Positions 13,902-62,816 of a stretch of DNA of 64,000 nt are shown here, in pieces. Where the stretch lies: IMG/VR virus record IMGVR_UViG_3300033463_000048, positions 39,434 to 103,433 of that record. One strand, given 5' to 3'. A program made the position numbers and the translations under genes. This DNA comes from a virus. Taxonomy: Duplodnaviria > Heunggongvirae > Uroviricota > Caudoviricetes. The notes beneath the pieces were generated by a model that saw only the letters and a program-made list of their open reading frames with translations, ran no database searches and was not told where the DNA came from. Numbering within the stretch: the first letter of the stretch is position 1; every line of letters starts with the position of its first letter.

Positions 13902-14964
13902 ACATTTCTTTCTCCCGTTTAGTTTTCTTTGGCATATTTGTCCAAACTAACAAATCACGTGCTCTTGTGGCTGCTACATAACTTAAGCACTTTTCTTCAG
14001 TATTATACATACGCGCCCCAACCACAATTACGTTCTTTCGCTCTAAGCCTTTCGCGCTATGAATTGTGAGGATTTTAACTGTGTTGTCTTCCATTTTTTC
14101 TCGAAGTTGTTCTGTGGTTAATTCGTTTCTTTTAAGTATATCGTATGGAAGTCCAACATCTTTAAATTTTCGTGCCACTTCATCAATTTGCGCATTAGTA
14201 CGAGTAAGAACAAACCAATCACGATATTCGTCTGTACTCTTTCTAATTCCTTTTACAATTTTACTTAAGTCATAAGTCATATCATAAACTTTACCGATAT
14301 TATCTCGCGCGGGATAAGATGTGTCCATATAATCTAATCCGGCAAGATTGATAATACGTTTTGCAAAATTTAATATCGCGCGACTATTACGGAAATTTTT
14401 GGTTAGGTCGTAGGTTTTTATTTTGGGGTCTTTTGCTAAGTCAAGGAGTATGTCAGGTCGGCTACCGCGGAACGTATAAATACTTTGACGCCAATCGCCC
14501 ACCATCATCCATTTCTTTGGCTTAATATAGTCAAGGATAACCTTAAACTGCATATCTGTAGAATCTTGCGCCTCATCAAGAAATAGATAATCCACTTCTC
14601 TAATACAATGAAGATTCTTACTAATTAAGTTAAACAAATCATCAAACTTTTCTTCTGATATAATAAAAGAAGTATCAATTCCATTTGAAGTTAAAAGAGA
14701 ATTAACATAAGAATGGATAGTTCCTACAAACATTCCATCTTTATAATCTTCCCCAAGGCGTGCACGTAGAACTTCTGCGGCGTTATTTGTGAAAGTAAAA
14801 ACTACAATTCGCACGGGATTGGTATCTGGCATTTGAAGTACTTTTCTAACCTTTTCAGTTAAAGTTTCTGTTTTTCCACTTGCGGCTGTAGCATTTACTA
14901 CAATAAAATCTTCTGTTGAATTGATAACTGCTTGCTGTTCTTCTGTAAAATCTTTATATTCCAT
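13891..14964 (-). CDS. compact UvrD/PcrA-like SF1 helicase
   Basis: Motif I VVNATAASGKT, motif VI-like LTIHSAKGLERKNVIVVGA; 357 aa. Confidence 0.6.
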   Translation of the reverse strand: MEYKDFTEEQQAVINSTEDFIVVNATAASGKTETLTEKVRKVLQMPDTNPVRIVVFTFTNNAAEVLRARLGEDYKDGMFVGTIHSYVNSLLTSNGIDTSFIISEEKFDDLFNLISKNLHCIREVDYLFLDEAQDSTDMQFKVILDYIKPKKWMMVGDWRQSIYTFRGSRPDILLDLAKDPKIKTYDLTKNFRNSRAILNFAKRIINLAGLDYMDTSYPARDNIGKVYDMTYDLSKIVKGIRKSTDEYRDWFVLTRTNAQIDEVARKFKDVGLPYDILKRNELTTEQLREKMEDNTVKILTIHSAKGLERKNVIVVGARMYNTEEKCLSYVAATRARDLLVWTNMPKKTKREKEMYGW

Positions 14965-16052
14965 TAATTTTCCTCTTCTACTTGATATTCTATAAGTTTT
15001 CTTTTTTGAGAATTAGAATACCTAAAATATCTATTATGAGTATGCTTCTTTTTTCCATCGCAAACTTTTTTGATGTCATTATAAGAAAAACCCAATTCTT
15101 TTTCTGCTTGTGTGGAAGATTTATATTTTTTAATAATACTACCATTTTCATCTATTTCTTCTATTTCACAACATTGAGAAGATAAAAGATATTTTTCATA
15201 TCGTTCTTCAAAACTATCTATTCCATTAAGTCTAAACCAAATATACCCTCCAGCGGTAATTTGATTACCTAATGCTGCGGCTTTTATACTACTAACATCT
15301 ATTTTTAATTGTTTTGATGCTTCACCAGCACTTTTCCAATTCTTAACAAAATTACCCTCTAAGTCATATTGACAGAGTATTTTTGTTATTGTTTTATTAT
15401 TTTTAACATCTTCTATTATTTTATTTATATTTTGTTCATCTTTCTTATAAATCCATATATAACCACATCCATAATGATGTGAAGGAATAAGTTTAGGCAA
15501 ATCTAAACCAGTTTCTTTTTTTGCTTGAGCGTAATTTTCATATATTCCAATTAAGTCTCCATTAAAGGTATATTGTAGCACTGTTCGCGGTTGACAATAT
15601 AATTCCAAAGACTTAACTCTTTTTAGAATACAGCTACGAGATGCGCCTAAAAGATTAGCAACCACAGGAACAGATTTTAATTCTTTATATGCTTCTATAA
15701 TTTCTTCATCAGAGAATTTTTGATGACCGCTACCACCACTTGAGATATTATATCCTATTTCCTTATTTGTTGAATTATATAAATCAATATAATATATTTC
15801 TTTATCATTTAATTCTTCATTTTTTACTCTTTCTAGTATTTCTCTTTTAAAATTTTTTTTACCATATTTTTTAATAGCATTACATAAAGCAGGACAATCA
15901 TTATTTGGATTATTATAAGCCCAAAAAATATGTTGCTGCCATCTTATGGGTTCTGGTACAATAGTTTGACCTATATATATTTTATTATTAATTAAATTTG
16001 TAATTTTATAAATTACTCCCATATTATCCTCCAGACTTAATATTATATCCAT
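14964..16052 (-). CDS. GIY-YIG homing endonuclease
   Basis: GVIYKITNLINNKIYIGQT ... YNISSGG GIY-YIG core; C-terminal DNA-binding repeats. Confidence 0.8.
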   Translation of the reverse strand: MDIILSLEDNMGVIYKITNLINNKIYIGQTIVPEPIRWQQHIFWAYNNPNNDCPALCNAIKKYGKKNFKREILERVKNEELNDKEIYYIDLYNSTNKEIGYNISSGGSGHQKFSDEEIIEAYKELKSVPVVANLLGASRSCILKRVKSLELYCQPRTVLQYTFNGDLIGIYENYAQAKKETGLDLPKLIPSHHYGCGYIWIYKKDEQNINKIIEDVKNNKTITKILCQYDLEGNFVKNWKSAGEASKQLKIDVSSIKAAALGNQITAGGYIWFRLNGIDSFEERYEKYLLSSQCCEIEEIDENGSIIKKYKSSTQAEKELGFSYNDIKKVCDGKKKHTHNRYFRYSNSQKRKLIEYQVEEEN

Positions 16053-17070
16053 AGATATCTGATTTATAAAAATCTATATAAAATTTTTCTCTTTCACCTA
16101 GATTTTTATCTAATGGAACTTCTTCTAATATTGTAAAAGTAAAATTATCCCAATTACTAAATAATGCTTTATGGATATTTGTTCTACTTATTGTTCCAAT
16201 ATTAAGTGAGGTTTTTATGTGCTCAGTCCATCTTTTTGTGATTTCTGCTTTAGTTTTACCTATATAAATTTCTCCACTTTTTTCATTTTTAATCATATAT
16301 ATAACATTTTTGGGATCTTTATTTCCTAAAGTTCTTTTCAGCATATTTTTAAAAGGTTGTTGAATATATTCTGTCCATATTATTTTATAAATGGTTTCTT
16401 TATTATTAAAATGATTTAATATAGAAACCAAATAGTTTATATCTGCTTTTGCTTCATCGGATAAACAAACTCTATAGAAATCTTGATTTTCAGAAATTTC
16501 ACGTTGACGTAGAATTTCCTTATTTATAACTTCGCGTTTTTGACGATAGTCTTCAACTTCTGTTTTAAGAGAAGAAAGTTCGAGATTCGCCCTCTCGATT
16601 TCTTCTCTATGCTTTTCCAAGAACTCTTCTAATTCTTCGCTTGACTCAGATTTAAGTTGTGAGAGTATAGAATCAAGTTGAGATTTATAAGAAGTATAAT
16701 TGGAATTATAGTAGTTTTGAAGAGTAAGGTCAATATTGTCTTTTTTAATTTGGAGTTGATTTTGAAGTTGAGCTTCAATTTCTTGCGCGCTTTCACGCTT
16801 AGATTCCAAAGTTTTTTCAATGCCGCGCAGATTAGATTTAGCAACTTCAGCATTTGCAATGGCCACGTCTGCGAGATTTTTGGCTTGGGTAAGTCTTTCT
16901 TCCTCTTTCCGCTCCAAGGACGAAATTTCCCATAATCTATTTTTATAAGATTCTTCTAATTTTTTATTTAATTCTATATAACTATCTTTAGAAAGTTTAT
17001 TTACTTTCTTTTTAAAGTAAATTATATAAATTAATAAACCTATAATTAAAGTAATTAAAAAATAATACAT
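16024..17070 (-). CDS. membrane-anchored coiled-coil protein with C-terminal GIY-YIG nuclease domain
   Basis: N-terminal TM helix LITLIIGLLIYIIYF, long Glu/Lys/Leu-rich heptad region, C-terminal VIYMIKNEKSGEIYIGKT...YNIKSGG. Confidence 0.6.
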   Translation of the reverse strand: MYYFLITLIIGLLIYIIYFKKKVNKLSKDSYIELNKKLEESYKNRLWEISSLERKEEERLTQAKNLADVAIANAEVAKSNLRGIEKTLESKRESAQEIEAQLQNQLQIKKDNIDLTLQNYYNSNYTSYKSQLDSILSQLKSESSEELEEFLEKHREEIERANLELSSLKTEVEDYRQKREVINKEILRQREISENQDFYRVCLSDEAKADINYLVSILNHFNNKETIYKIIWTEYIQQPFKNMLKRTLGNKDPKNVIYMIKNEKSGEIYIGKTKAEITKRWTEHIKTSLNIGTISRTNIHKALFSNWDNFTFTILEEVPLDKNLGEREKFYIDFYKSDIYGYNIKSGG

Positions 17071-57445: not shown

Positions 57446-57667
57446 ATGGAAGAACTTAGAGATCGTGATTTAATGAACATCTATGAAATCTACGACCGAC
57501 TTCTCGATCTTGCTTGCGCGACTAATGATAAAGAAGAGGAATTGGTTTTGAGAAATGCAAGCAGAATGCTTAGAGAAATTGAAATTTATGCTAATAATAT
57601 ATCTGAAAATGATAATATGTTTTGGTCTAAAGGCGTTATAAAGGATATTATCTATCCTCTTGGATAA
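57446..57667 (+). CDS. hypothetical protein
   Basis: 73 aa. Confidence 0.35.
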   Translation: MEELRDRDLMNIYEIYDRLLDLACATNDKEEELVLRNASRMLREIEIYANNISENDNMFWSKGVIKDIIYPLG

Positions 57668-57671
57668 GCTA

Positions 57672-57716
57672 TAAAAAATTTGAAAAAAATATAAAATTAT
57701 ATTATAATTAATATAG
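57672..57716 (+). promoter_or_regulatory. conserved promoter-family member
   Basis: ttgaaa 57680-85, tataat 57703-08, spacer 17, then TAATATAGAAAATAAG. Confidence 0.6.
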
Positions 57717-57738
57717 AAAATAAGAAAGGAGCTTAAAA

Positions 57739-57984
57739 ATGGAACATCTTATCCCTGAAGAATTTAACTCTAAAGAATTTAACTACAACATTGAACTTTG
57801 TATGGAAGTTGTAGAAAAATTCCATAGAATTCAGTTGATTGATAGCGATCTTGCTGCTGCAATTATTCCTACTCTAATCGATAATTATGCAGATGGACTT
57901 GGTATTGATGCAGTTGAATTTGCAAAAACTCTTGTCCCATTGATTGAAACCAATCACCGTGAAAACCCGGAATTATACAAATAA
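57739..57984 (+). CDS. hypothetical acidic protein
   Basis: 81 aa. Confidence 0.4.
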   Translation: MEHLIPEEFNSKEFNYNIELCMEVVEKFHRIQLIDSDLAAAIIPTLIDNYADGLGIDAVEFAKTLVPLIETNHRENPELYK

Positions 57985-58026
57985 AATTTGAAAAAGTTTT
58001 AAAATTATTGTATAATTTATTTAGAA
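57982..58026 (+). promoter_or_regulatory. conserved promoter-family member
   Basis: ttgaaa 57988-93, tataat 58011-16, spacer 17, then TTATTTAGAAAGTTGAGAGAG. Confidence 0.65.
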
Positions 58027-58061
58027 AGTTGAGAGAGAATTAAAAAGAAAGGAGAGTAAGA

Positions 58062-58688: not shown

Positions 58689-58850
58689 AACCGTACCTGC
58701 ACTGATGCCCACTAGGAAAGCACGTCGCGCGAGAGCAAAGAACAATATGTATGATGTACCTCATTTGTTTAAGCGTACTTCAGCGCGCAATGCAAAGCGT
58801 CAGAGTTATTTCTCACTTCATTGGAGAGAGGCGGTAATGTTTGATGAGTG
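58678..58850 (+). CDS. small basic protein (MKTKTVPALMPTRKARRARAKNNMYD...)
   Basis: 57 codons, Arg/Lys-rich; below the ORF-track cutoff. Confidence 0.3.
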
Positions 58851-59161
58851 ATTTTGAGAACCAACTTCAAATTATTCTTTCAAAACATATTCTCGTTTTT
58901 ACACCCGACTATCACGTTGTAGTATATAGTTGGCGCGCCATGCAAGAATTAGCGGAATACTTCAAAACTTACCAAAGCGCGCACACAGATTTTCTATATA
59001 CCTCTATGGCGCAGTCTACTGCGCCTGGGGATTATGCTGGCGCGGATGCGTGGGGCGCATTTAGTTGGGTAGATAATGGTGAAATTAAAATGTTTGGATT
59101 AAATTTTATGCAGGAAGCGCAGGAAAATAGATTTAAGCAATTTAATTCCACTTCTAATTGA
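58841..59161 (+). CDS. hypothetical protein
   Basis: 106 aa; last ORF before long non-coding region. Confidence 0.4.
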   Translation: MMSDFENQLQIILSKHILVFTPDYHVVVYSWRAMQELAEYFKTYQSAHTDFLYTSMAQSTAPGDYAGADAWGAFSWVDNGEIKMFGLNFMQEAQENRFKQFNSTSN

Positions 59162-59303
59162 ACTCATTAGTTTACGGAAAACCGCGAACTAATGGGTTCG
59201 CGAGATAAGTTCAACTCTTATATGAGTTATTGGTTTGACTTTATTTGACTCCTTTCTTTAGTTGTACCTCTTTCTTACAGCGCGGACGAGAGTTCGCGCA
59301 CCT

Positions 59304-59381
59304 GGGGGTAAGAATGGTTTCGACTACGCTTAAACCCAAAGTGGACTGCGTAGGACGCGGGATCGTAACCCGCTACCTCCA
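59304..59381 (+). ncRNA. non-canonical tRNA-like element (candidate tRNA mimic/Y-RNA-like module)
   Basis: Acceptor-like GGGGGTA/TACCTCC plus discriminator A. T-arm GCGGG-ATCGTAA-CCCGC. Internal CTACGC-18 nt-GCGTAG stem instead of a canonical anticodon arm. Lies within an ORF-free GC-rich segment. Confidence 0.4.
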
Positions 59382-59571
59382 CTCAGGAAGACCATCCCAT
59401 CGCGGCGTATGATCTTCTACCGTTATCATGAATTTCGAGTACTTAAACTACCACCGGCACTCAACTTAGGCGTCCTTGAGATATGCGAGTCAGTGATATG
59501 TGGCATTTAGTGGGGAACGGTATATAAGAACGCAAAGTAAAGTACTCCTCTCTTTGAGAGAATTAAAATTT

Positions 59572-59616
59572 TAAAATTTGAAAAAGTTTTAAAATTTTGG
59601 TATAATTTTTATAGAA
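59572..59616 (+). promoter_or_regulatory. conserved promoter-family member
   Basis: ttgaaa 59578-83, tataat 59601-06, spacer 17, then TTTTATAGAAAGTTGAGAGAG. Confidence 0.65.
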
Positions 59617-59655
59617 AGTTGAGAGAGAAATCTCACTTTATATTACAACAATATC

Positions 59656-59725
59656 GCGGAGTAGAGGAGAGGAACCTTGCTAGGCCCATAACCTAGAGAC
59701 GCGAGTTCGAATCTCGCCTTCCGCA
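59656..59725 (+). tRNA. tRNA-Met/Ile2-like (anticodon CAT) with short D-arm
   Basis: T-arm GCGAG-TTCGAAT-CTCGC, anticodon arm CTAGG-CCCATAA-CCTAG, acceptor GCGGAGT/CTTCCGC with one mismatch. Confidence 0.5.
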
Positions 59726-59729
59726 ATCA

Positions 59730-60110
59730 AAGGTGCACACAGCAAACTTTTTAAACAAGCATATGATTAGGGATCATATCCTCCACAATAGGATAAGCGA
59801 AGTTGGCGCCTTGTATTTTTAACTTAAAAGCACTTACTGCAATTTTAAAACCGCCGAAAGGCTCCACAGATTAAAGATGAAAATGCAACTTTAGTGGCAT
59901 CCTGCCATAAACTTAAAAAAGTGCTTTGGAATTTTTAAAACTTAAAAGCTCACCCAGCAAACTTAAATTGGGATAATAAAACAACATTGTGAACGCTGTT
60001 TTTAAGTGGTTCAAGTCCACTATAAAGAGCTTTGTAAATTGAAAAGAAACTTAAACGCCCTTTCTGCAATCTTAAAAAATAGCTTAAAGGTAAAGCAATT
60101 CACTTGTAAT
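59730..60110 (+). repeat. array of degenerate 30-45-nt repeats (AACTTAAAAGC..C(A/T)GCAAAC/CTGCAAT.. units) with embedded tRNA-arm-like hairpins
   Basis: Units gcacacagcaaac, gcacttactgcaat, gctcacccagcaaac, gccctttctgcaat each preceded by aactt-aaaag. T-arm-like GTGGTTCAAGTCCAC at ~60005. No ORF of 60 aa or longer on either strand. Confidence 0.5.
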
Positions 60111-60160
60111 GAATATATGCGGTTCGAATCCGTTTTTGGGCGTTGTATTTTTACTAAACT
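60063..60160 (+). other. degenerate tRNA-like sequence (anticodon-arm ATTCA-CTTGTAA-TGAAT; T-loop GCGG-TTCGAAT-CCGT)
   Basis: Imperfect acceptor pairing; probably a decayed tRNA or tRNA-like RNA. Confidence 0.3.
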
Positions 60161-60175
60161 TAAAGGAGAATTCTT

Positions 60176-61765
60176 ATGTCAGATTTTTGGTCACTTATGA
60201 AAAACGAAGATAATTACACATATACAGAGAATGGCGCAGTAGCATATAAGAGTTCTCTTAATAAGTGTTTGGATATGTTTGCAACCTTCGGCGCTTTGAG
60301 AAAAGAGTCCGATTGGTCAACATATACGCAGATATTCCTCGATGCAATTGCTGAGGATCCTGTAACTGCAATGAAGGTTTTGTTCTATGTGCGTGATATT
60401 CGTGGTGGACAGGGCGCACGTACAATCTTCCGTAAGTGTATGGAAGCTCTCGTAAATACTCATACGGATTATCTTAAGGCTGTAATTGAGTTAATTCCTG
60501 AGTATGGTAGATGGGATGACCTTTTTGTACTAATTAAATACCGTAATAGAGAAGTAAATCAGATTATTCTTGAGTTCATTGCTAAGACCCTTACAACTGA
60601 TCTCTGTGGATTATCTAATACACTTCTTGCAAAGTGGATGCCTTCAGAGTCTGCCTCAAATGTAGAGCAGAAGAAGTTGGCTGCATACTTTACAAATAGA
60701 CTTTTCAATGGAGATAAGAGAACTTATCGTAAGACAATTTCTCGTCTTCGTGAGAATAGTCATATTGTAGAGACTTCAATGTCCGCAAATAAGTGGGATA
60801 TTGATTTCTCAAAGGTGCCTTCACGGGCATCTCTAAAATATAAAGACGCCTTCTATAACCACAATCCTGAGGGTTATACAAAGTATCTGTATGATGTCGC
60901 AACCGGTAAGGCTAAGATTAATGCGGCTGCTTTGTTCCCAGTAGATATTGTAGAAAAGGCTCAGATAACTTCTCTTAGCGATAAGAGAAATGTTATCACC
61001 CTTGATGCAATGTGGAAGGCTCTTCCTAACTACCTTGAAGGTAAGGAAGAAACTGGATTGTGTGTTGTAGACGTTTCCGGTTCCATGAGTGGAACACCTT
61101 TGAACGTTGCTTTGTCACTTGGCTTGTACTGTGCAGAGCGCGCGAAGGGTCCTTACAATGGAAAGTTTATTACATTCTCTGAGAGACCTCAGATGGTTGA
61201 AGTTCGCGGCAAGAATCTTGTCGAGAAGCTTCAGAATATGAATCGCGCGCATTGGGATATGAATACAAATATCGAAGCGGTATTTGATTTGATTCTCGAT
61301 ACGGCAATTCGTAATAAGCTTCCACAGTCTGATATTCCTTCAAAGTTGTATATCATTAGTGATATGCAGTTTGACGCAGCAAGAAATGAGTATGGTTCTT
61401 GGTACGGTTATCGCCGTAAGCCAAGAGCTAACGAAAGAACCTTTATGACAACCATAAAGGAGAAGTTTGCTCGTGCGGGCTATGATATGCCACTTCTTGT
61501 GTACTGGAATGTAAGACCAAGTAAGGCGGGAATGTTTCAGGAAACCGTCGGTGGTGAACAGTGCTGTATGGTTAGCGGGTTCTCTCCTTCGTTGTTCAAG
61601 GCTGTAATTGAAGGCACTTCTTACGAAGAGCAGGTAATTACAACCGAAACGGGCGAGAAGAAGACCGTTACCGTACAGAAGCTGAACCCATTGGATATGA
61701 TGATGAAGACATTGTCAAATCCAAGATACGATGCGGTTGGTGAAGCAATGAAGGCGTTTAGTTAA
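60176..61765 (+). CDS. Ro60/TROVE-like RNA-binding protein with C-terminal vWA (MIDAS DxSGS) domain
   Basis: N-terminus GAVAYKSSLNKCLDMFATFGAL and VLFYVRDIRGGQGARTIF fit a TROVE-like pattern. The vWA MIDAS motif is CVVDVSGSMSGTPL. The C-terminal CCMVSGFSPSLFKAVI parallels Ro60 MCGFDTGALDVI. Total length 529 aa. Confidence 0.5.
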   Translation: MSDFWSLMKNEDNYTYTENGAVAYKSSLNKCLDMFATFGALRKESDWSTYTQIFLDAIAEDPVTAMKVLFYVRDIRGGQGARTIFRKCMEALVNTHTDYLKAVIELIPEYGRWDDLFVLIKYRNREVNQIILEFIAKTLTTDLCGLSNTLLAKWMPSESASNVEQKKLAAYFTNRLFNGDKRTYRKTISRLRENSHIVETSMSANKWDIDFSKVPSRASLKYKDAFYNHNPEGYTKYLYDVATGKAKINAAALFPVDIVEKAQITSLSDKRNVITLDAMWKALPNYLEGKEETGLCVVDVSGSMSGTPLNVALSLGLYCAERAKGPYNGKFITFSERPQMVEVRGKNLVEKLQNMNRAHWDMNTNIEAVFDLILDTAIRNKLPQSDIPSKLYIISDMQFDAARNEYGSWYGYRRKPRANERTFMTTIKEKFARAGYDMPLLVYWNVRPSKAGMFQETVGGEQCCMVSGFSPSLFKAVIEGTSYEEQVITTETGEKKTVTVQKLNPLDMMMKTLSNPRYDAVGEAMKAFS

Positions 61766-61945: not shown

Positions 61946-62025
61946 GGGCGTGTAGCCTAATTGGCTGAGGCAGCAAACTGTTAATTTGTCCTTCGGGAAT
62001 GTGGGTTCAAGTCCCACCGCGCCCG
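61946..62025 (+). tRNA. tRNA-Asn (GTT)-like with extended 11-nt variable region
   Basis: Acceptor GGGCGTG/CGCGCCC, D-arm GCCT-AATTGGCTG-AGGC, anticodon loop CTGTTAA, T-arm GTGGG-TTCAAGT-CCCAC. Confidence 0.55.
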
Positions 62026-62035
62026 CTTATAAAAT

Positions 62036-62117
62036 GCGCGTATCGCCTAGTGGTAGGGCACATGACTTTTAATCATGCGGATATAATCCATCGGTGGTTC
62101 GAATCCACTTGCGCGCA
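62036..62117 (+). tRNA. tRNA-Lys (TTT)-like with long 15-nt variable arm
   Basis: Acceptor GCGCGTA/TGCGCGC, anticodon arm CATGA-CTTTTAA-TCATG, T-arm GGTGG-TTCGAAT-CCACT. Confidence 0.55.
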
Positions 62118-62204
62118 GTAAATTTTGAACCCTGTTTTAAACTATTATATTTATTTATTAACAATTTTACTTATAGTTAGAAAATAAATAGGAGGCTCAA
62201 TAAA

Positions 62205-62816
62205 ATGAGTAATAGTAAATCAGTGGTTAATCATATCAAAAAAAGAAAAAGAGATTTGGTAAGACTTTTTGGAGGGAAATGCTGTATTTGTGGTTTTGAT
62301 AAATATCCAGAGGCTTTAGAATTCCATCATATTAATCCCGAAGAGAAAGAGTTTGGTTTAATGGAGAAAGGTGCAACAACAAAAGCTTTGGAAAAACAAT
62401 TAAAAGAGCTAAAAAAATGCATTATGGTTTGTTCTAATTGTCATAAAGGCATTCATGCTGGAAGAATTGAGTTACCAACAGAAGTTCCTGGGTACGATGA
62501 AGAAATTGCTGAAGAACTACTAAGAGAAAACTACCGAATTAAACATGGACAGCAATTTTATTGTCCTCGATGCGGGGCGCCTGTAAGTACGAAAGGTGTT
62601 CATTGTATTCCATGTTCAAATCTTTTATCTAGAAAAGTAGATAGACCGAGCAGAGAAGAATTAAAAGAACTTATTCGAAATGTTGCCTTTACAAAAATTG
62701 CTGAAAAATTTGGTGTCTCAGACAATGCAGTTCGTAAATGGTGTAAAACATATAATTTACCATCAAAGAAAAAAGAAATATCCAATTATTCAGATGAAGA
62801 TTGGGAAAAAATTTAG
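62205..62816 (+). CDS. HNH homing endonuclease with C-terminal HTH
   Basis: CCICG...LEFHHINPEEKEF...CSNCH HNH core; second Cys4 cluster; C-terminal IAEKFGVSDNAVRKWC. Confidence 0.8.
   Translation: MSNSKSVVNHIKKRKRDLVRLFGGKCCICGFDKYPEALEFHHINPEEKEFGLMEKGATTKALEKQLKELKKCIMVCSNCHKGIHAGRIELPTEVPGYDEEIAEELLRENYRIKHGQQFYCPRCGAPVSTKGVHCIPCSNLLSRKVDRPSREELKELIRNVAFTKIAEKFGVSDNAVRKWCKTYNLPSKKKEISNYSDEDWEKI

What the first reader, a model, noticed from the sequence alone, without database searches (positions are those of the whole stretch)
59304..59381. Non-canonical tRNA-like element with ATCGTAA T-loop and 18-nt internal loop
A 7-bp acceptor-like stem (GGGGGTA/TACCTCC) and a perfect 5-bp T-stem (GCGGG/CCCGC) are present. 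The T-loop is ATCGTAA rather than TTCGAAT. The anticodon arm is replaced by a CTACGC-18 nt-GCGTAG stem-loop. This is the kind of partial tRNA mimicry described for Y RNAs. Alternatively it is a decayed tRNA.
Basis: seen in the sequence. Interest (0 to 1): 0.65.

Follow-up and report, generated by a model that had tools for sequence, protein, structure and literature searches.

The report
Phage mini-tmRNA lacking its message part
The flagged 78-nt element is a phage-encoded copy of only the tRNA-like end of bacterial tmRNA (the ribosome-rescue RNA), a kind reported once before in mycobacteriophage DS6A, and it probably lets the phage interfere with or replace the host's rescue-and-tagging system.

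Summary
It is not a Y RNA or a decayed tRNA. It is a TLD-only "mini-tmRNA": the 5' and 3' ends of a tmRNA joined by a short hairpin, with no tag reading frame and no pseudoknots. Rfam's tmRNA model matches end to end (42 bits, E 3.5e-15, about 308 internal positions collapsed to 14 nt). A covariance model built without it scores it at 54 bits, against 27 or less for tRNAs. The one published phage example, DS6A, behaves identically (43 and 48 bits). Four related phages carry an ortholog at the same position: 98.9% of cells paired, 8 of 18 pairs compensated, G3:U70 and A73 fixed. At least 124 more copies occur in viral contigs. In an unbiased set, 38 of 38 keep G1:C72, G2:C71, G3:U70 and A73, so charging with alanine appears to be selected. 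The odd AUCGUAA T-loop is a coupled 54/58 swap specific to this phage. The same swap recurs in CPR tmRNAs and in other minis, so it is a variant, not decay. A Ro60-like gene lies 800 bp downstream, but it has better Y-RNA candidates beside it and does not co-occur with mini-tmRNAs elsewhere. Verdict: new member of a known but barely studied kind.

The parts
59304..59310 (+). Acceptor stem, 5' strand GGGGGUA; G3 at 59306 forms the G3:U70 wobble
   Evidence: Pairs 1-3 are invariant and pairs 4-7 are compensated among the 5 orthologs. G1:C72, G2:C71 and G3:U70 occur in 38 of 38 unbiased family members.
59311..59324 (+). D-loop-equivalent region AGAAUGGUUUCGAC, including the UGG and UUCGAC (59319-59324) motifs of the tmRNA TLD; one nt longer than the family consensus
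   Evidence: Aligned to RF00023 positions 8-21 and to E. coli ssrA CUGGAUUCGAC. 79% invariant among orthologs.
59325..59329 (+). Connector (helix-2a-like) stem, 5' strand UACGC; C59324 adds a sixth pair with G59353
   Evidence: Among orthologs 2 pairs are compensated, 2 change on one side and 100% of cells are paired. All 5 pairs covary across the family.
59330..59347 (+). 18-nt 'loop' UUAAACCCAAAGUGGACU; the core AAACCCAAAGUG (59332-59343) is a remnant of the 5' strand of tmRNA helix 2
   Evidence: 89% invariant among orthologs. 11 of 12 identical to E. coli ssrA AAACCCAAGGUG. Similar motifs occur in L127, L123, L196 and DS6A.
59348..59352 (+). Connector stem, 3' strand GCGUA
59353..59356 (+). 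GGAC motif preceding the T-arm, the conserved tmRNA TLD junction
   Evidence: 100% invariant among orthologs. Matches RF00023 and E. coli GGACGCGGG.
59357..59373 (+). T-arm: stem GCGGG/CCCGC with variant T-loop AUCGUAA (A54 at 59362, U58 at 59366)
   Evidence: Two stem pairs are compensated among orthologs. The relatives have UUCGAAU, UUCAACU or UUCGACU. A54..U58 loops recur in CPR tmRNAs and in other minis.
59374..59381 (+). Acceptor stem 3' strand UACCUCC (U70 at 59378) plus discriminator A73 (59381); no encoded CCA (followed by CUC)
   Evidence: None of the 15 tRNA genes in the window encodes CCA. None of the 4 orthologs encodes CCA.
59280..59299 (+). Conserved GC-rich hairpin GCGCGGAC-GAGA-GUUCGCGC, ending 4 nt before the mature 5' end (leader element; role inferred)
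   Evidence: The loop differs (GAGA/GAAA against UU) while the stem is kept in all 5 phages.
59546..59577 (+). Terminator-like hairpin (CUCUC-UUU-GAGAG + AAUUAAAAUUUU): probable 3' boundary of the transcription unit that holds the element
   Evidence: The stem differs but still pairs in L366 and L369 (by eye; pairing in L370 and L368 is unclear). It is followed by the invariant sigma70-type promoter at 59578-59606.

Best explanation
It is a phage gene for a TLD-only ('CDS-less') tmRNA. This is a ~78-nt RNA made of the acceptor stem, D-loop equivalent and T-arm of tmRNA, closed by a short remnant of helix 2, with no mRNA-like domain.

Proposed mechanism:
(1) It is transcribed early by the host polymerase, at the 3' end of the small-ORF unit upstream of the tRNA array (inferred).
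(2) It is matured like a tRNA: 5' cut by RNase P, 3' trimming, then CCA added post-transcriptionally, as must also happen for all this phage's tRNAs (inferred).
(3) It is charged with alanine by host AlaRS through G3:U70 and A73 (conservation shown, charging inferred).
(4) It binds host SmpB through the UUCGAC/GGAC/T-loop platform (motifs shown, binding inferred).
(5) As Ala-TLD-SmpB-EF-Tu it competes with host tmRNA for SmpB and for stalled ribosomes. Proteins from broken messages are then not given the degradation tag. At most they receive one alanine, giving tag-less rescue or blockade of trans-translation.

Confidence that it is a TLD-only tmRNA homolog is about 0.93. Confidence in the competitive, charging-dependent mechanism is about 0.5. 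The single figure given for this explanation (0.6) covers identity and mechanism together.
For: Identity:
- RF00023 matches model positions 1-374, 42.0 bits, E 3.5e-15, with 308 positions replaced by 14 nt.
- CM R1, built without the window, gives 54.2 bits against 27 or less for tRNAs.
- DS6A's published 'TLD only' element scores 48.3 (R1) and 43.2 (Rfam) with the same collapsed architecture.
- The 5' half, loop core and 3' half align to E. coli ssrA.

Functional constraint:
- Orthologs at the syntenic site in 4 relatives are 98.9% paired, against 39-54% in slid controls, with 8 of 18 pairs compensated.
- Loops are more conserved than stems.

Charging: G1:C72, G2:C71, G3:U70 and A73 occur in 38 of 38 elements found with the acceptor left unconstrained, while pairs 4-7 vary. 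The same holds in 5 of 5 orthologs and in DS6A.

Dependence on the host: there is no SmpB in the window or in the viral mini-tmRNA loci, although the same query finds smpB next to nine bacterial tmRNA loci.

CCA: none of the 15 tRNAs encodes it.

[quoted passage not shown] 2009; PMC11915505).

No hidden message part: ARAGORN finds no tag, and the downstream 196 nt is unstructured (z +1.15) and not conserved.
Against: - There is no expression, processing, charging or SmpB-binding data for this or any environmental member. Steps 1-5 are inferred.
- The published inhibition reportedly did not need chargeability (PMC4131195). A pure SmpB sponge would therefore work, and the conserved alanine identity needs another reason, so the exact on-ribosome outcome is open.
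- This copy's T-loop (A54, U58, A59, A60) departs from its four relatives and could impair elbow formation or SmpB/EF-Tu handling.
- The 18-nt loop is more conserved than the model requires, which suggests an unidentified partner.
- The benefit to the phage is unknown.
- The host is unknown.
Confidence: 0.6

Rival explanations
1. A pure SmpB sponge. The RNA only sequesters SmpB (and perhaps RNase R) away from host tmRNA. It never needs to be aminoacylated or to enter the ribosome.
For: [quoted passage not shown] The UUCGAC/GGAC platform is conserved. No phage SmpB is found.
Against: It does not explain why G1:C72, G2:C71, G3:U70 and A73 are invariant in 38 of 38 unbiased members, 5 of 5 orthologs and DS6A while the rest of the acceptor stem drifts with compensation. 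These positions are AlaRS identity elements, not, to my knowledge, SmpB contacts.
Confidence: 0.2
2. A Y-RNA-like ligand of the phage Ro60-like protein. The tRNA-like element would tether the neighbouring Ro60/TROVE protein to an effector, as part of an RNA quality-control or repair module with RtcB.
For: ORF 60176-61765 is structurally Ro60/TROVE-like (9kop E 2e-6; 9l5y 'Ro60 dimer from Thermus phage phiLo' E 1.2e-5). It lies 800 bp downstream in all 5 related phages. RtcB follows in L368, and DS6A also has an RtcB-like ligase.
Against: - The ends form an acceptor stem with a free discriminator rather than a Ro-binding stem, and no Y-RNA family hit appears at E <= 10.
- A terminator-like hairpin and a strong promoter separate it from the Ro60-like gene.
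- None of 80 DUF2828 loci holds a mini-tmRNA, and none of 284 mini-tmRNA/pattern loci holds DUF2828.
- DS6A has no Ro60-like gene.
- Four tandem units with closing stems and inner T-arms sit directly upstream of the Ro60-like gene and are better ligand candidates.
Confidence: 0.06
3. A decoy or shield against host defences that cleave or sense tRNA/tmRNA. The mini-tmRNA would soak up anticodon-nuclease-type or tmRNA-directed activities, or supply t(m)RNA-like fragments as in the AcrIIIA1 protein-RNA anti-CRISPR.
For: Its position at the head of a 15-gene tRNA array, with Ro60-like and (in L368) RtcB repair genes, suggests an RNA-damage-response island. AcrIIIA1 associates with tRNA and tmRNA fragments (PMC11662646).
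Against: Most family members stand alone with no tRNA genes nearby. Strict retention of the AlaRS identity set and the SmpB-platform motifs is not required of a nuclease decoy. There is no direct evidence.
Confidence: 0.1
4. Non-functional relic: a decayed tRNA or tmRNA pseudogene, or an attP-type fragment of the host ssrA picked up by imprecise excision.
For: The T-loop departs from consensus, there is no CCA, and the element is below the Rfam gathering score. ssrA is a common integration site, and phage-borne ssrA fragments are known (PMC9004378).
Against: - Compensatory substitutions occur in all three helices among orthologs, with 98.9% of cells paired.
- attP fragments carry only the 3' part of the gene, whereas this element has both halves precisely joined.
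- No integrase was found among the 20 larger ORFs scanned. In DS6A the integrase is 10 kb away.
- Absence of CCA is the rule for this genome's tRNAs.
- The A54/U58 swap is a coupled change also found in full-length tmRNAs that sit next to smpB.
Confidence: 0.03

Closest known systems
TLD-only tmRNA of Mycobacterium phage DS6A (tmRNA Website tmID 11587; Hudson, Lau & Williams 2014, PMC4131195; Mao et al. 2009 RNA Biol 6:355)
   Same: Same architecture and size: 78 nt against 80 nt, at JN698994.1 28478-28557. Both have a 7-bp acceptor with G3:U70 and A73, a UGG...UCGAC D-side motif, a 5-6 bp connector stem, a loop with an AAA(A)CC...GG.AC motif, a G(G)AC junction and a 5-bp T-stem. Neither encodes CCA or a tag. 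Both fall just below the Rfam tmRNA gathering score, with about 310 model positions collapsed (42.0 and 43.2 bits). Both are hit by R1 (54.2 and 48.3 bits). Both are absent from standard annotation.
   Different: T-loop AUCGUAA (A54/U58) against the canonical UUCGAUU. GC 55% against 70%. A large, virulent-looking, low-GC phage of unknown host against a temperate actinophage. Here the element heads a tRNA array next to a Ro60-like gene, whereas DS6A's lies between gp33 and a DNA pol III gene and DS6A has no Ro60-like gene.
Bacterial one-piece tmRNA (SsrA; Rfam RF00023)
   Same: The tRNA-like domain is homologous: the 5' 21 nt, the helix-2 5'-strand core (AAACCCAAAGUG, 11 of 12 identical to E. 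coli) and the 3' 29 nt GGAC-T-arm-acceptor-A. Alanine identity elements are kept.
   Different: It lacks the mRNA-like domain (resume codon, tag ORF, stop) and all pseudoknots. It cannot encode a degradation tag. It is phage-borne, with no adjacent smpB.
CDS-less organellar tmRNAs (jakobid and other mitochondria, Jacob et al. 2004; ~65-bp Mallomonadaceae plastid forms, PMC11915505)
   Same: Natural tmRNAs reduced to little more than the TLD. They are presumed to work with SmpB without tagging.
   Different: Those are the cell's or organelle's only tmRNA, with a dedicated imported SmpB, so they substitute for the system. The phage form coexists with, and probably competes with, a full host tmRNA.
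Bacterial Y RNAs with tRNA-like modules (YrlA) bound by Ro60/Rsr (Chen et al. 2014, from my own knowledge)
   Same: Partial tRNA mimicry (T-arm, D-like loop) without a decoding anticodon loop, and a Ro60-like gene nearby.
   Different: The topology is opposite: here the termini are at the acceptor stem and the 'anticodon side' is closed. AlaRS identity is kept. There is no Rfam Y-RNA match. It does not co-occur with Ro60-like genes outside this clade.
tRNA-Ala
   Same: G3:U70, A73, the acceptor/T-arm minihelix and the requirement for CCA.
   Different: No anticodon arm (6-bp stem with an 18-nt loop) and a degenerate 3-bp D-stem. ARAGORN does not call it, and in Rfam the tmRNA model is the one reported here, not the tRNA model of the same clan.

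Membership tests
TLD-only (CDS-less) tmRNA, DS6A type | 5' and 3' halves of the tmRNA tRNA-like domain joined by a short connector in place of the MLD and pseudoknots | tested here: met
   RF00023 aligns positions 1-374 with 308 positions replaced by 14 nt. DS6A gives 312 replaced by 20 nt.
TLD-only (CDS-less) tmRNA, DS6A type | Scores as a family member with a model that did not include it | tested here: met
   R1: window 54.2 bits, orthologs 51-57, DS6A 48.3, tRNAs 27 or less.
TLD-only (CDS-less) tmRNA, DS6A type | Alanine identity set (G3:U70, A73) | tested here: met
   Present here. Present in 5 of 5 orthologs and in 38 of 38 unbiased members.
TLD-only (CDS-less) tmRNA, DS6A type | Conserved D-side UUCGAC and pre-T-arm GGAC motifs | tested here: met
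TLD-only (CDS-less) tmRNA, DS6A type | Binds SmpB and inhibits or replaces trans-translation | not testable with these tools
   Only the literature precedent for a similar molecule (PMC4131195, PMC11915505).
Full tmRNA (Rfam RF00023) | mRNA-like domain with resume codon, tag reading frame and stop | tested here: not met
   Only 28 nt lie between UUCGAC and GGAC. ARAGORN reports no tmRNA or tag. The downstream region is unstructured and not conserved.
Full tmRNA (Rfam RF00023) | Pseudoknots PK1-PK4 | tested here: not met
   Absent (alignment).
Full tmRNA (Rfam RF00023) | Reaches the curated gathering score | tested here: not met
   42.0 bits against 47.
Y RNA / YrlA | 5' and 3' termini pair into a Ro-binding stem; the tRNA-like module is internal | tested here: not met
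   The termini form a 7-bp acceptor stem with an unpaired discriminator.
Y RNA / YrlA | Match to a curated Y-RNA family | tested here: not met
   No such hit at E <= 10 in 58800-59800.
Y RNA / YrlA | Genomic linkage to a Ro60 ortholog | tested here: inconclusive
   A Ro60-like gene lies 800 bp downstream in this clade, but in a separate transcription unit. There is no co-occurrence elsewhere: 0 of 80 and 0 of 284 loci, and DS6A has none.
Y RNA / YrlA | Physical binding to Ro60 | not testable with these tools
   -
Canonical tRNA (RF00005) | Anticodon arm with a 5-bp stem and 7-nt loop, and a 4-bp D-stem | tested here: not met
   6-bp stem with an 18-nt loop, and a 3-bp GAA/UUC D-stem at best. 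ARAGORN does not call it.

The most novel reading that the evidence does not exclude
TLD-only tmRNAs are a widespread phage counter-measure, not a DS6A curiosity: at least 124 IMG/VR contigs carry one and current annotation tools miss them. They must be alanylated to work. As Ala-TLD-SmpB they enter stalled ribosomes and give tag-less rescue, or poison host trans-translation. This would protect phage proteins made from messages cut by host defence RNases. In this clade the RNA has been recruited into an RNA-damage-response island together with a tRNA array, a phage Ro60-like protein with tandem Y-like RNAs, and RtcB.
Probability: 0.3. Interest if true: 0.7.

Novelty: new member of a known kind. 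Interest (0 to 1): 0.45.

Why it matters
Trans-translation is close to universal in bacteria and is an antibiotic target. A natural, phage-made RNA that competes with tmRNA would be an evolved inhibitor or bypass of it. The published record names one phage example (DS6A) and gives no mechanism. This window adds a well-supported second lineage with orthologs. Following it up showed that the class is common in uncultivated phages, that ARAGORN and Rfam's gathering threshold both miss it, and that its alanine-identity nucleotides are its most invariant feature. That last point turns 'SmpB sponge or charged ribosome-entering mimic?' into a testable question. The A54/U58 T-loop swap, shared with CPR tmRNAs, is a natural experiment on T-loop requirements.

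Tried and rejected
1. megablast and blastn of the region and of the element against 50,697 deposited phages found no match. GyrA tblastn gave at best 34% identity. The phage and its host remain unidentified.
2. The first loose DNA pattern (14 specified bases) returned mostly chance hits, with 5 real ones. My first generalised regex was malformed. A non-greedy regex then skipped the window's own copy, because its loop contains a decoy GGAC. A covariance model replaced these.
3. MAFFT mis-registered the 5' acceptor when D-region lengths differed (A1). I rebuilt the alignment from members with a 20-nt 5' segment (A2).
4. A host-clade guess from the A54/U58 T-loop: CPR tmRNAs share the loop type but not the helix-2 motif, so there is no host call.
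5. I looked for a hidden mRNA-like partner or tag ORF downstream (59382-59577). There is no tag-like frame, z is +1.15, and the segment is indel-ridden among relatives. Rejected.
6. attP or integration relic: no integrase was found. Rejected.
7. Sequence-profile search of the DUF2828 protein against PDB found nothing. Only the fold search revealed the Ro60/TROVE similarity.
8. Mao et al. 2009 is not held in the library, so its results are cited second-hand.
9. A column-based pair count for the upstream odd tRNA-like element was abandoned, because the MAFFT register was not structure-aware.
10. The 50-nt invariant block is not a repeated promoter and remains unexplained.

Full report
**1. The observation**

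- GGGGGUA (59304-59310) pairs with UACCUCC (59374-59380). The third pair is a G:U wobble.
- GCGGG pairs with CCCGC around the loop AUCGUAA (59357-59373).
- CUACGC pairs with GCGUAG around 18 nt (59324-59353).
- A 3-bp GAA/UUC mini D-stem is also present.
- An unpaired A sits at 59381, followed by CUC rather than CCA.

The MFE fold gives exactly these helices (-28.3 kcal/mol). The z-score of -2.1 is only modest. ARAGORN finds 16 genes in the window but not this one, and Rfam at gathering thresholds lists only tRNAs.

**2. What it is**

The 5' half (GGGGGUAAGAAUGGUUUCGAC) and the 3' half (GGACGCGGG...CCCGCUACCUCCA) looked to me like the two ends of a tmRNA. A permissive Rfam scan confirmed it. 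RF00023 (tmRNA) matches 59304-59384 over model positions 1-374, at 42.0 bits and E 3.5e-15, with 308 internal model positions replaced by 14 nt. That is below the gathering score of 47, which explains the silence. No Y-RNA family matched at E <= 10.

Comparison with the real E. coli ssrA sequence shows that the conserved core of the '18-nt loop', AAACCCAAAGUG, is identical at 11 of 12 positions to AAACCCAAGGUG in the 5' strand of tmRNA helix 2. The element therefore looks like a one-piece tmRNA from which everything between helix 2's 5' strand and the base of its 3' strand has been removed. There is no resume codon, tag frame or pseudoknot.

**3. It belongs to a class, and the class is known**

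The tmRNA-database papers list 'Mycobacterium phage DS6A (TLD only)'. [quoted passage not shown] CDS-less forms are also reported for mitochondria and for two plastids (PMC11915505).

I located the DS6A element at JN698994.1 28478-28557. It is unannotated and lies between gp33 and gp34. It is 80 nt long, has G3:U70 and no CCA, and scores 43.2 bits with RF00023, with 312 positions collapsed to 20 nt. That is the same behaviour as the window's element.

A 24-base pattern, for which I estimate well under one chance hit, found 115 IMG/VR contigs. A script extracted 104 elements (64 unique, 66-94 nt) from them. An 18-sequence alignment that excluded the window supports the three-helix fold:
- 97.7% of cells are paired, against 53-71% in slid controls.
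- All five connector-stem pairs have changes on both sides.
- The invariance of acceptor pairs 1-5 and of most of the T-stem in that set was imposed by my search pattern and carries no weight.

The covariance model R1 built from this alignment scores the window's element at 54.2 bits (E 3e-8 over 1 Mb). The best ordinary tRNA scores 27.1 bits.

**4. Orthologs**

The neighbouring 529-aa protein has relatives at 75-90% identity. Their contigs (L366, L368, L369, L370) are syntenic, and each carries an R1 hit of 51-57 bits at the same position. These five sequences were not chosen by any RNA pattern. Among them:
- 98.9% of cells are paired, against 39-54% in slid controls.
- 8 of 18 pairs are compensated.
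- The acceptor 5' strands are GGGGGUA, GGGGCUA, GGGGACG and GGGAUCG.
- G1:C72, G2:C71, G3:U70 and A73 never change.

The unpaired segments are the most conserved parts: the D-region is 79% invariant, the 18-nt loop 89% and GGAC 100%. This rules out a decayed gene.

**5. The alanine-identity signal, tested without bias**

I ran a scan that fixed only UUCGAC, GGACG and a canonical T-arm, leaving the acceptor stem and discriminator free. Of its 48 hits, 38 form an acceptor helix. All 38 have G1:C72, G2:C71, G3:U70 and A73, while pairs 4-7 vary among GC, CG, UA, AU and UG. Twenty of the 38 come from contigs not found before, so at least 124 verified elements exist in IMG/VR.

G3:U70 and A73 are the established AlaRS identity elements (my own knowledge; the review PMC8012679 states that the TLD mimics tRNA-Ala and is charged by AlaRS). 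Their conservation argues that charging is part of the function. A pure SmpB sponge would not need it.

**6. The non-canonical T-loop and the missing CCA**

The four relatives have canonical T-loops: UUCGAAU, UUCAACU and UUCGACU. AUCGUAA is therefore a derived state of this phage. Positions 54 and 58, which in tRNAs form the reverse-Hoogsteen pair, have swapped together, and position 60 has also changed. U55 and C56 are kept.

All 104 viral members extracted have U54...A58. The swapped type recurs elsewhere, however:
- In full-length tmRNAs of Patescibacteria/CPR (L354, L355, L357, L360), which sit next to smpB where the fetched DNA allows a check (L354, L355 and L357).
- In what looks like the acceptor piece of the SAR11 two-piece tmRNA.
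- In other minis. L315 has AGCGUAA. L343 and L345 have the same GGGGGUA/UACCUCC acceptor as the window, with AUCGUUA. L356 and L359 are further examples.

It is a viable natural variant, not damage.

The absence of CCA is also ordinary. None of the 15 tRNA genes in the window encodes CCA, none of the orthologs does, and only 20 of 38 family members do.

**7. Context**

The five-way alignment of the intergenic region shows this order:
- An odd tRNA-like element, 59161-59229.
- A 50-nt block that is 98% invariant, 59230-59279.
- A GC-rich hairpin, 59280-59299, then 4 nt.
- The mini-tmRNA.
- A variable segment full of indels, which is unstructured (z +1.15).
- A terminator-like hairpin at about 59546-59577.
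- An invariant sigma70-type promoter at 59578-59606, matching 11 of 12 positions with an upstream TG.
- tRNA-Met, the first gene of the array.

The same promoter sequence recurs at about 57690 and about 58000. The element therefore probably lies at the 3' end of the unit that starts near 58000 (inferred).

The window comes from a large phage that looks virulent: GyrA/B, DnaB, primase, a UvrD-like helicase, ligase, RecJ, PhoH and GIY-YIG endonucleases, with no integrase among the 20 larger ORFs scanned. It has no SmpB. The SmpB query was validated as a positive control.

Across the class, most members stand alone with no tRNA genes nearby. Lying at the head of a tRNA array is specific to this clade.

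**8. The Y-RNA rival**

An AlphaFold model of ORF 60176-61765 (DUF2828 + DUF7788; pLDDT 77) has only two significant PDB matches. They are a 'Trove domain' structure (9kop, E 2e-6) and 'Ro60 dimer from Thermus phage phiLo' (9l5y, E 1.2e-5). It fails on several counts:
- The element's ends form an acceptor stem, not a Ro-binding stem.
- A terminator-like hairpin and a promoter lie between it and the Ro60-like gene.
- None of 80 DUF2828 loci has a mini-tmRNA.
- None of 284 mini-tmRNA or pattern loci has DUF2828.
- DS6A has no Ro60-like gene.
- Four tandem units of about 90-110 nt lie directly upstream of the Ro60-like gene (about 59729-60146). Each has a closing outer stem and a shared NCWGCAAWY-UUAAA motif, and some have an inner T-arm. 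They are conserved in the relatives, and the closing stem compensates. They are much better Ro-ligand candidates.

I keep the Y-RNA reading of the flagged element at about 6%.

**9. Mechanism**

Shown:
- Homology to the tmRNA TLD.
- Structural conservation with covariation.
- Invariant alanine identity nucleotides and D-side/GGAC motifs.
- No message part.
- No phage SmpB in the window.

Inferred:
- tRNA-like maturation with post-transcriptional CCA addition.
- Alanylation.
- Binding to host SmpB.
- Competition with host tmRNA for SmpB and for stalled ribosomes. The result would be suppression of ssrA tagging or tag-less rescue.

The main rival is a charging-independent SmpB sponge, which has literature support but does not explain the identity-element conservation. 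Decoy and relic readings are weaker.

**10. Verdict**

The element is a new member of a known, scarcely studied kind, the phage TLD-only tmRNA. Two by-products raise its interest above that of a routine annotation: the size of the class and the invariance of its alanine identity set. Interest 0.45.

Noticed in passing
window 60176-61765 (+): The 529-aa DUF2828 + DUF7788 protein inside the tRNA array is structurally Ro60/TROVE-like. Its only significant PDB fold matches are 9kop 'Trove domain' (E 2e-6) and 9l5y 'Ro60 dimer from Thermus phage phiLo' (E 1.2e-5), while sequence and profile searches against PDB found nothing. The family is very large: 7,967 proteins had E <= 1e-10 among the 8,000 candidates scored.
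   Followed up: partly
window ~59729-59815, 59822-59925, 59940-60035, 60052-60146 (+): Four tandem units of about 90-110 nt lie between tRNA-Met and the Ro60-like gene. Each is closed by its own outer stem (AAGGUGC/GCGCCUU, GCACUU/AAGUGC, AGCUC/GAGCU, ACGCCC/GGGCGU), followed by a shared NCWGCAAWY-UUAAA motif. The last two hold T-arm-like hairpins. They are conserved upstream of the gene in the relatives, and the closing stem compensates. They are candidate Y-RNA-like ligands of the phage Ro60-like protein. No Rfam family matches them.
   Followed up: partly
window 60072-60141 (+): The 'tRNA-Thr(UGU)' called by ARAGORN, and by Rfam only over model positions 4-67, has an all-A/U acceptor with U:G pairs. 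It lies inside the last of the units above, enclosed by the ACGCCC...GGGCGU stem, 35 nt before the Ro60-like start codon. It may not be a decoding tRNA at all. In L366 the equivalent is called tRNA-Lys(UUU).
   Followed up: partly
window 59161-59229 (+); L368 4232-4300, L366 4078-4143, L370 206-271: A second non-canonical tRNA-like element lies 75 nt upstream of the mini-tmRNA. ARAGORN calls it tRNA-??? with a 4-base anticodon here and a 66-nt tRNA-Leu(UAA) in relatives. Two sequence versions exist, and in both the acceptor, the 7-bp 'anticodon' stem (with a 5-6 nt loop) and the T-stem all stay paired through compensating changes (read by eye). A long hairpin that pairs the 5' strand with the anticodon region is an alternative fold in both versions. 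For 59161-59303, z = -4.5.
   Followed up: partly
window 59230-59279 (+): A 50-nt block (UUGGUUUGACUUUAUUUGACUCCUUUCUUUAGUUGUACCUCUUUCUUA) is invariant at 49 of 50 positions across five phages whose flanking RNAs differ. It is more conserved than any RNA gene nearby. It is unique in the window and is not a sigma70-type promoter match. Its function is unknown.
   Followed up: partly
window 59280-59299 (+): A conserved 8-bp GC-rich hairpin with a GAGA tetraloop (UU in two relatives) ends exactly 4 nt before the mini-tmRNA 5' end. It could be a leader or processing element, or the 3' end of an upstream RNA.
   Followed up: no
window 57662-57731, 57970-58039, 59560-59629 (+): Three copies of a ~70-nt promoter region (AAAUUUGAAAAAGUUUUAAAAUU..UGGUAUAAU...GAAAGUUGAGAGAGAA). 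It is a recurring strong sigma70-type early promoter with a conserved leader.
   Followed up: no
window 40165-63934 (all 15 tRNA genes): None of the phage's tRNA genes encodes the 3' CCA, so the phage depends entirely on a CCA-adding enzyme.
   Followed up: yes
window 62035-62118 (+): tRNA-Lys(UUU) carries an extra ~11-nt hairpin (GGAUAUAAUCC) in the variable region (alignment). tRNA-Asn at 61946-62026 is also long, at 80 nt. The near-identical contig L365 has a 73-nt tRNA-Lys(UUU) instead.
   Followed up: no
L354, L355, L357, L360, L313, L322, L331, L336-L338 (metagenome and genome contigs): Full-length tmRNAs with a swapped A54...U58 T-loop (AUCAUUC, AUCGUUC, AGCAUUA and others). L354, L355, L357 and L360 are named Patescibacteria/CPR genomes, and the metagenome contigs L313 and L336 resemble L360 at the 5' end. 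Most of the ten lack an encoded CCA. smpB is adjacent in seven of them (L313, L322, L336, L337, L354, L355, L357). This looks like a lineage-wide departure from the near-universal T54-A58 arrangement. I did not check whether it has been described.
   Followed up: partly
L368 7600-8787 and 9134-11442; DS6A gp76 (JN698994.1 49300-50502): The relative L368 encodes RtcB after the tRNAs that follow the Ro60-like gene. It also encodes a nucleotidyltransferase (CTP_transf_like), an NMN transporter, an AAA_33 kinase and an isochorismatase, which looks like an NAD salvage set. DS6A, the other phage with a TLD-only tmRNA, also encodes an RtcB-like ligase.
   Followed up: no
L118 6475-6632 (-), L175 8177-8307 (+): In two marine viral contigs the mini-tmRNA abuts a tRNA-Thr(UGU) with a gap of only 2-3 nt, which suggests co-transcription and shared processing. 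Most other members have no tRNA within several kb.
   Followed up: no
L137, L147, L152, L176, L177, L194, L198, L201 and others (viral contigs): A 94-nt subfamily of minis has a longer connector made of GUCAC-rich repeats (GGUGUCACAGUGUCACCUGUCACAGAGUCACC). This may be a protein-binding or repeat-expansion variant of the connector.
   Followed up: no
window 14964-17070 (-), 62205-62816 (+): Two adjacent GIY-YIG/NUMOD homing-endonuclease-like ORFs lie in the replication module. A 203-aa ORF with a weak CoiA_N match is inserted in the tRNA array. These are probably mobile endonuclease genes.
   Followed up: no
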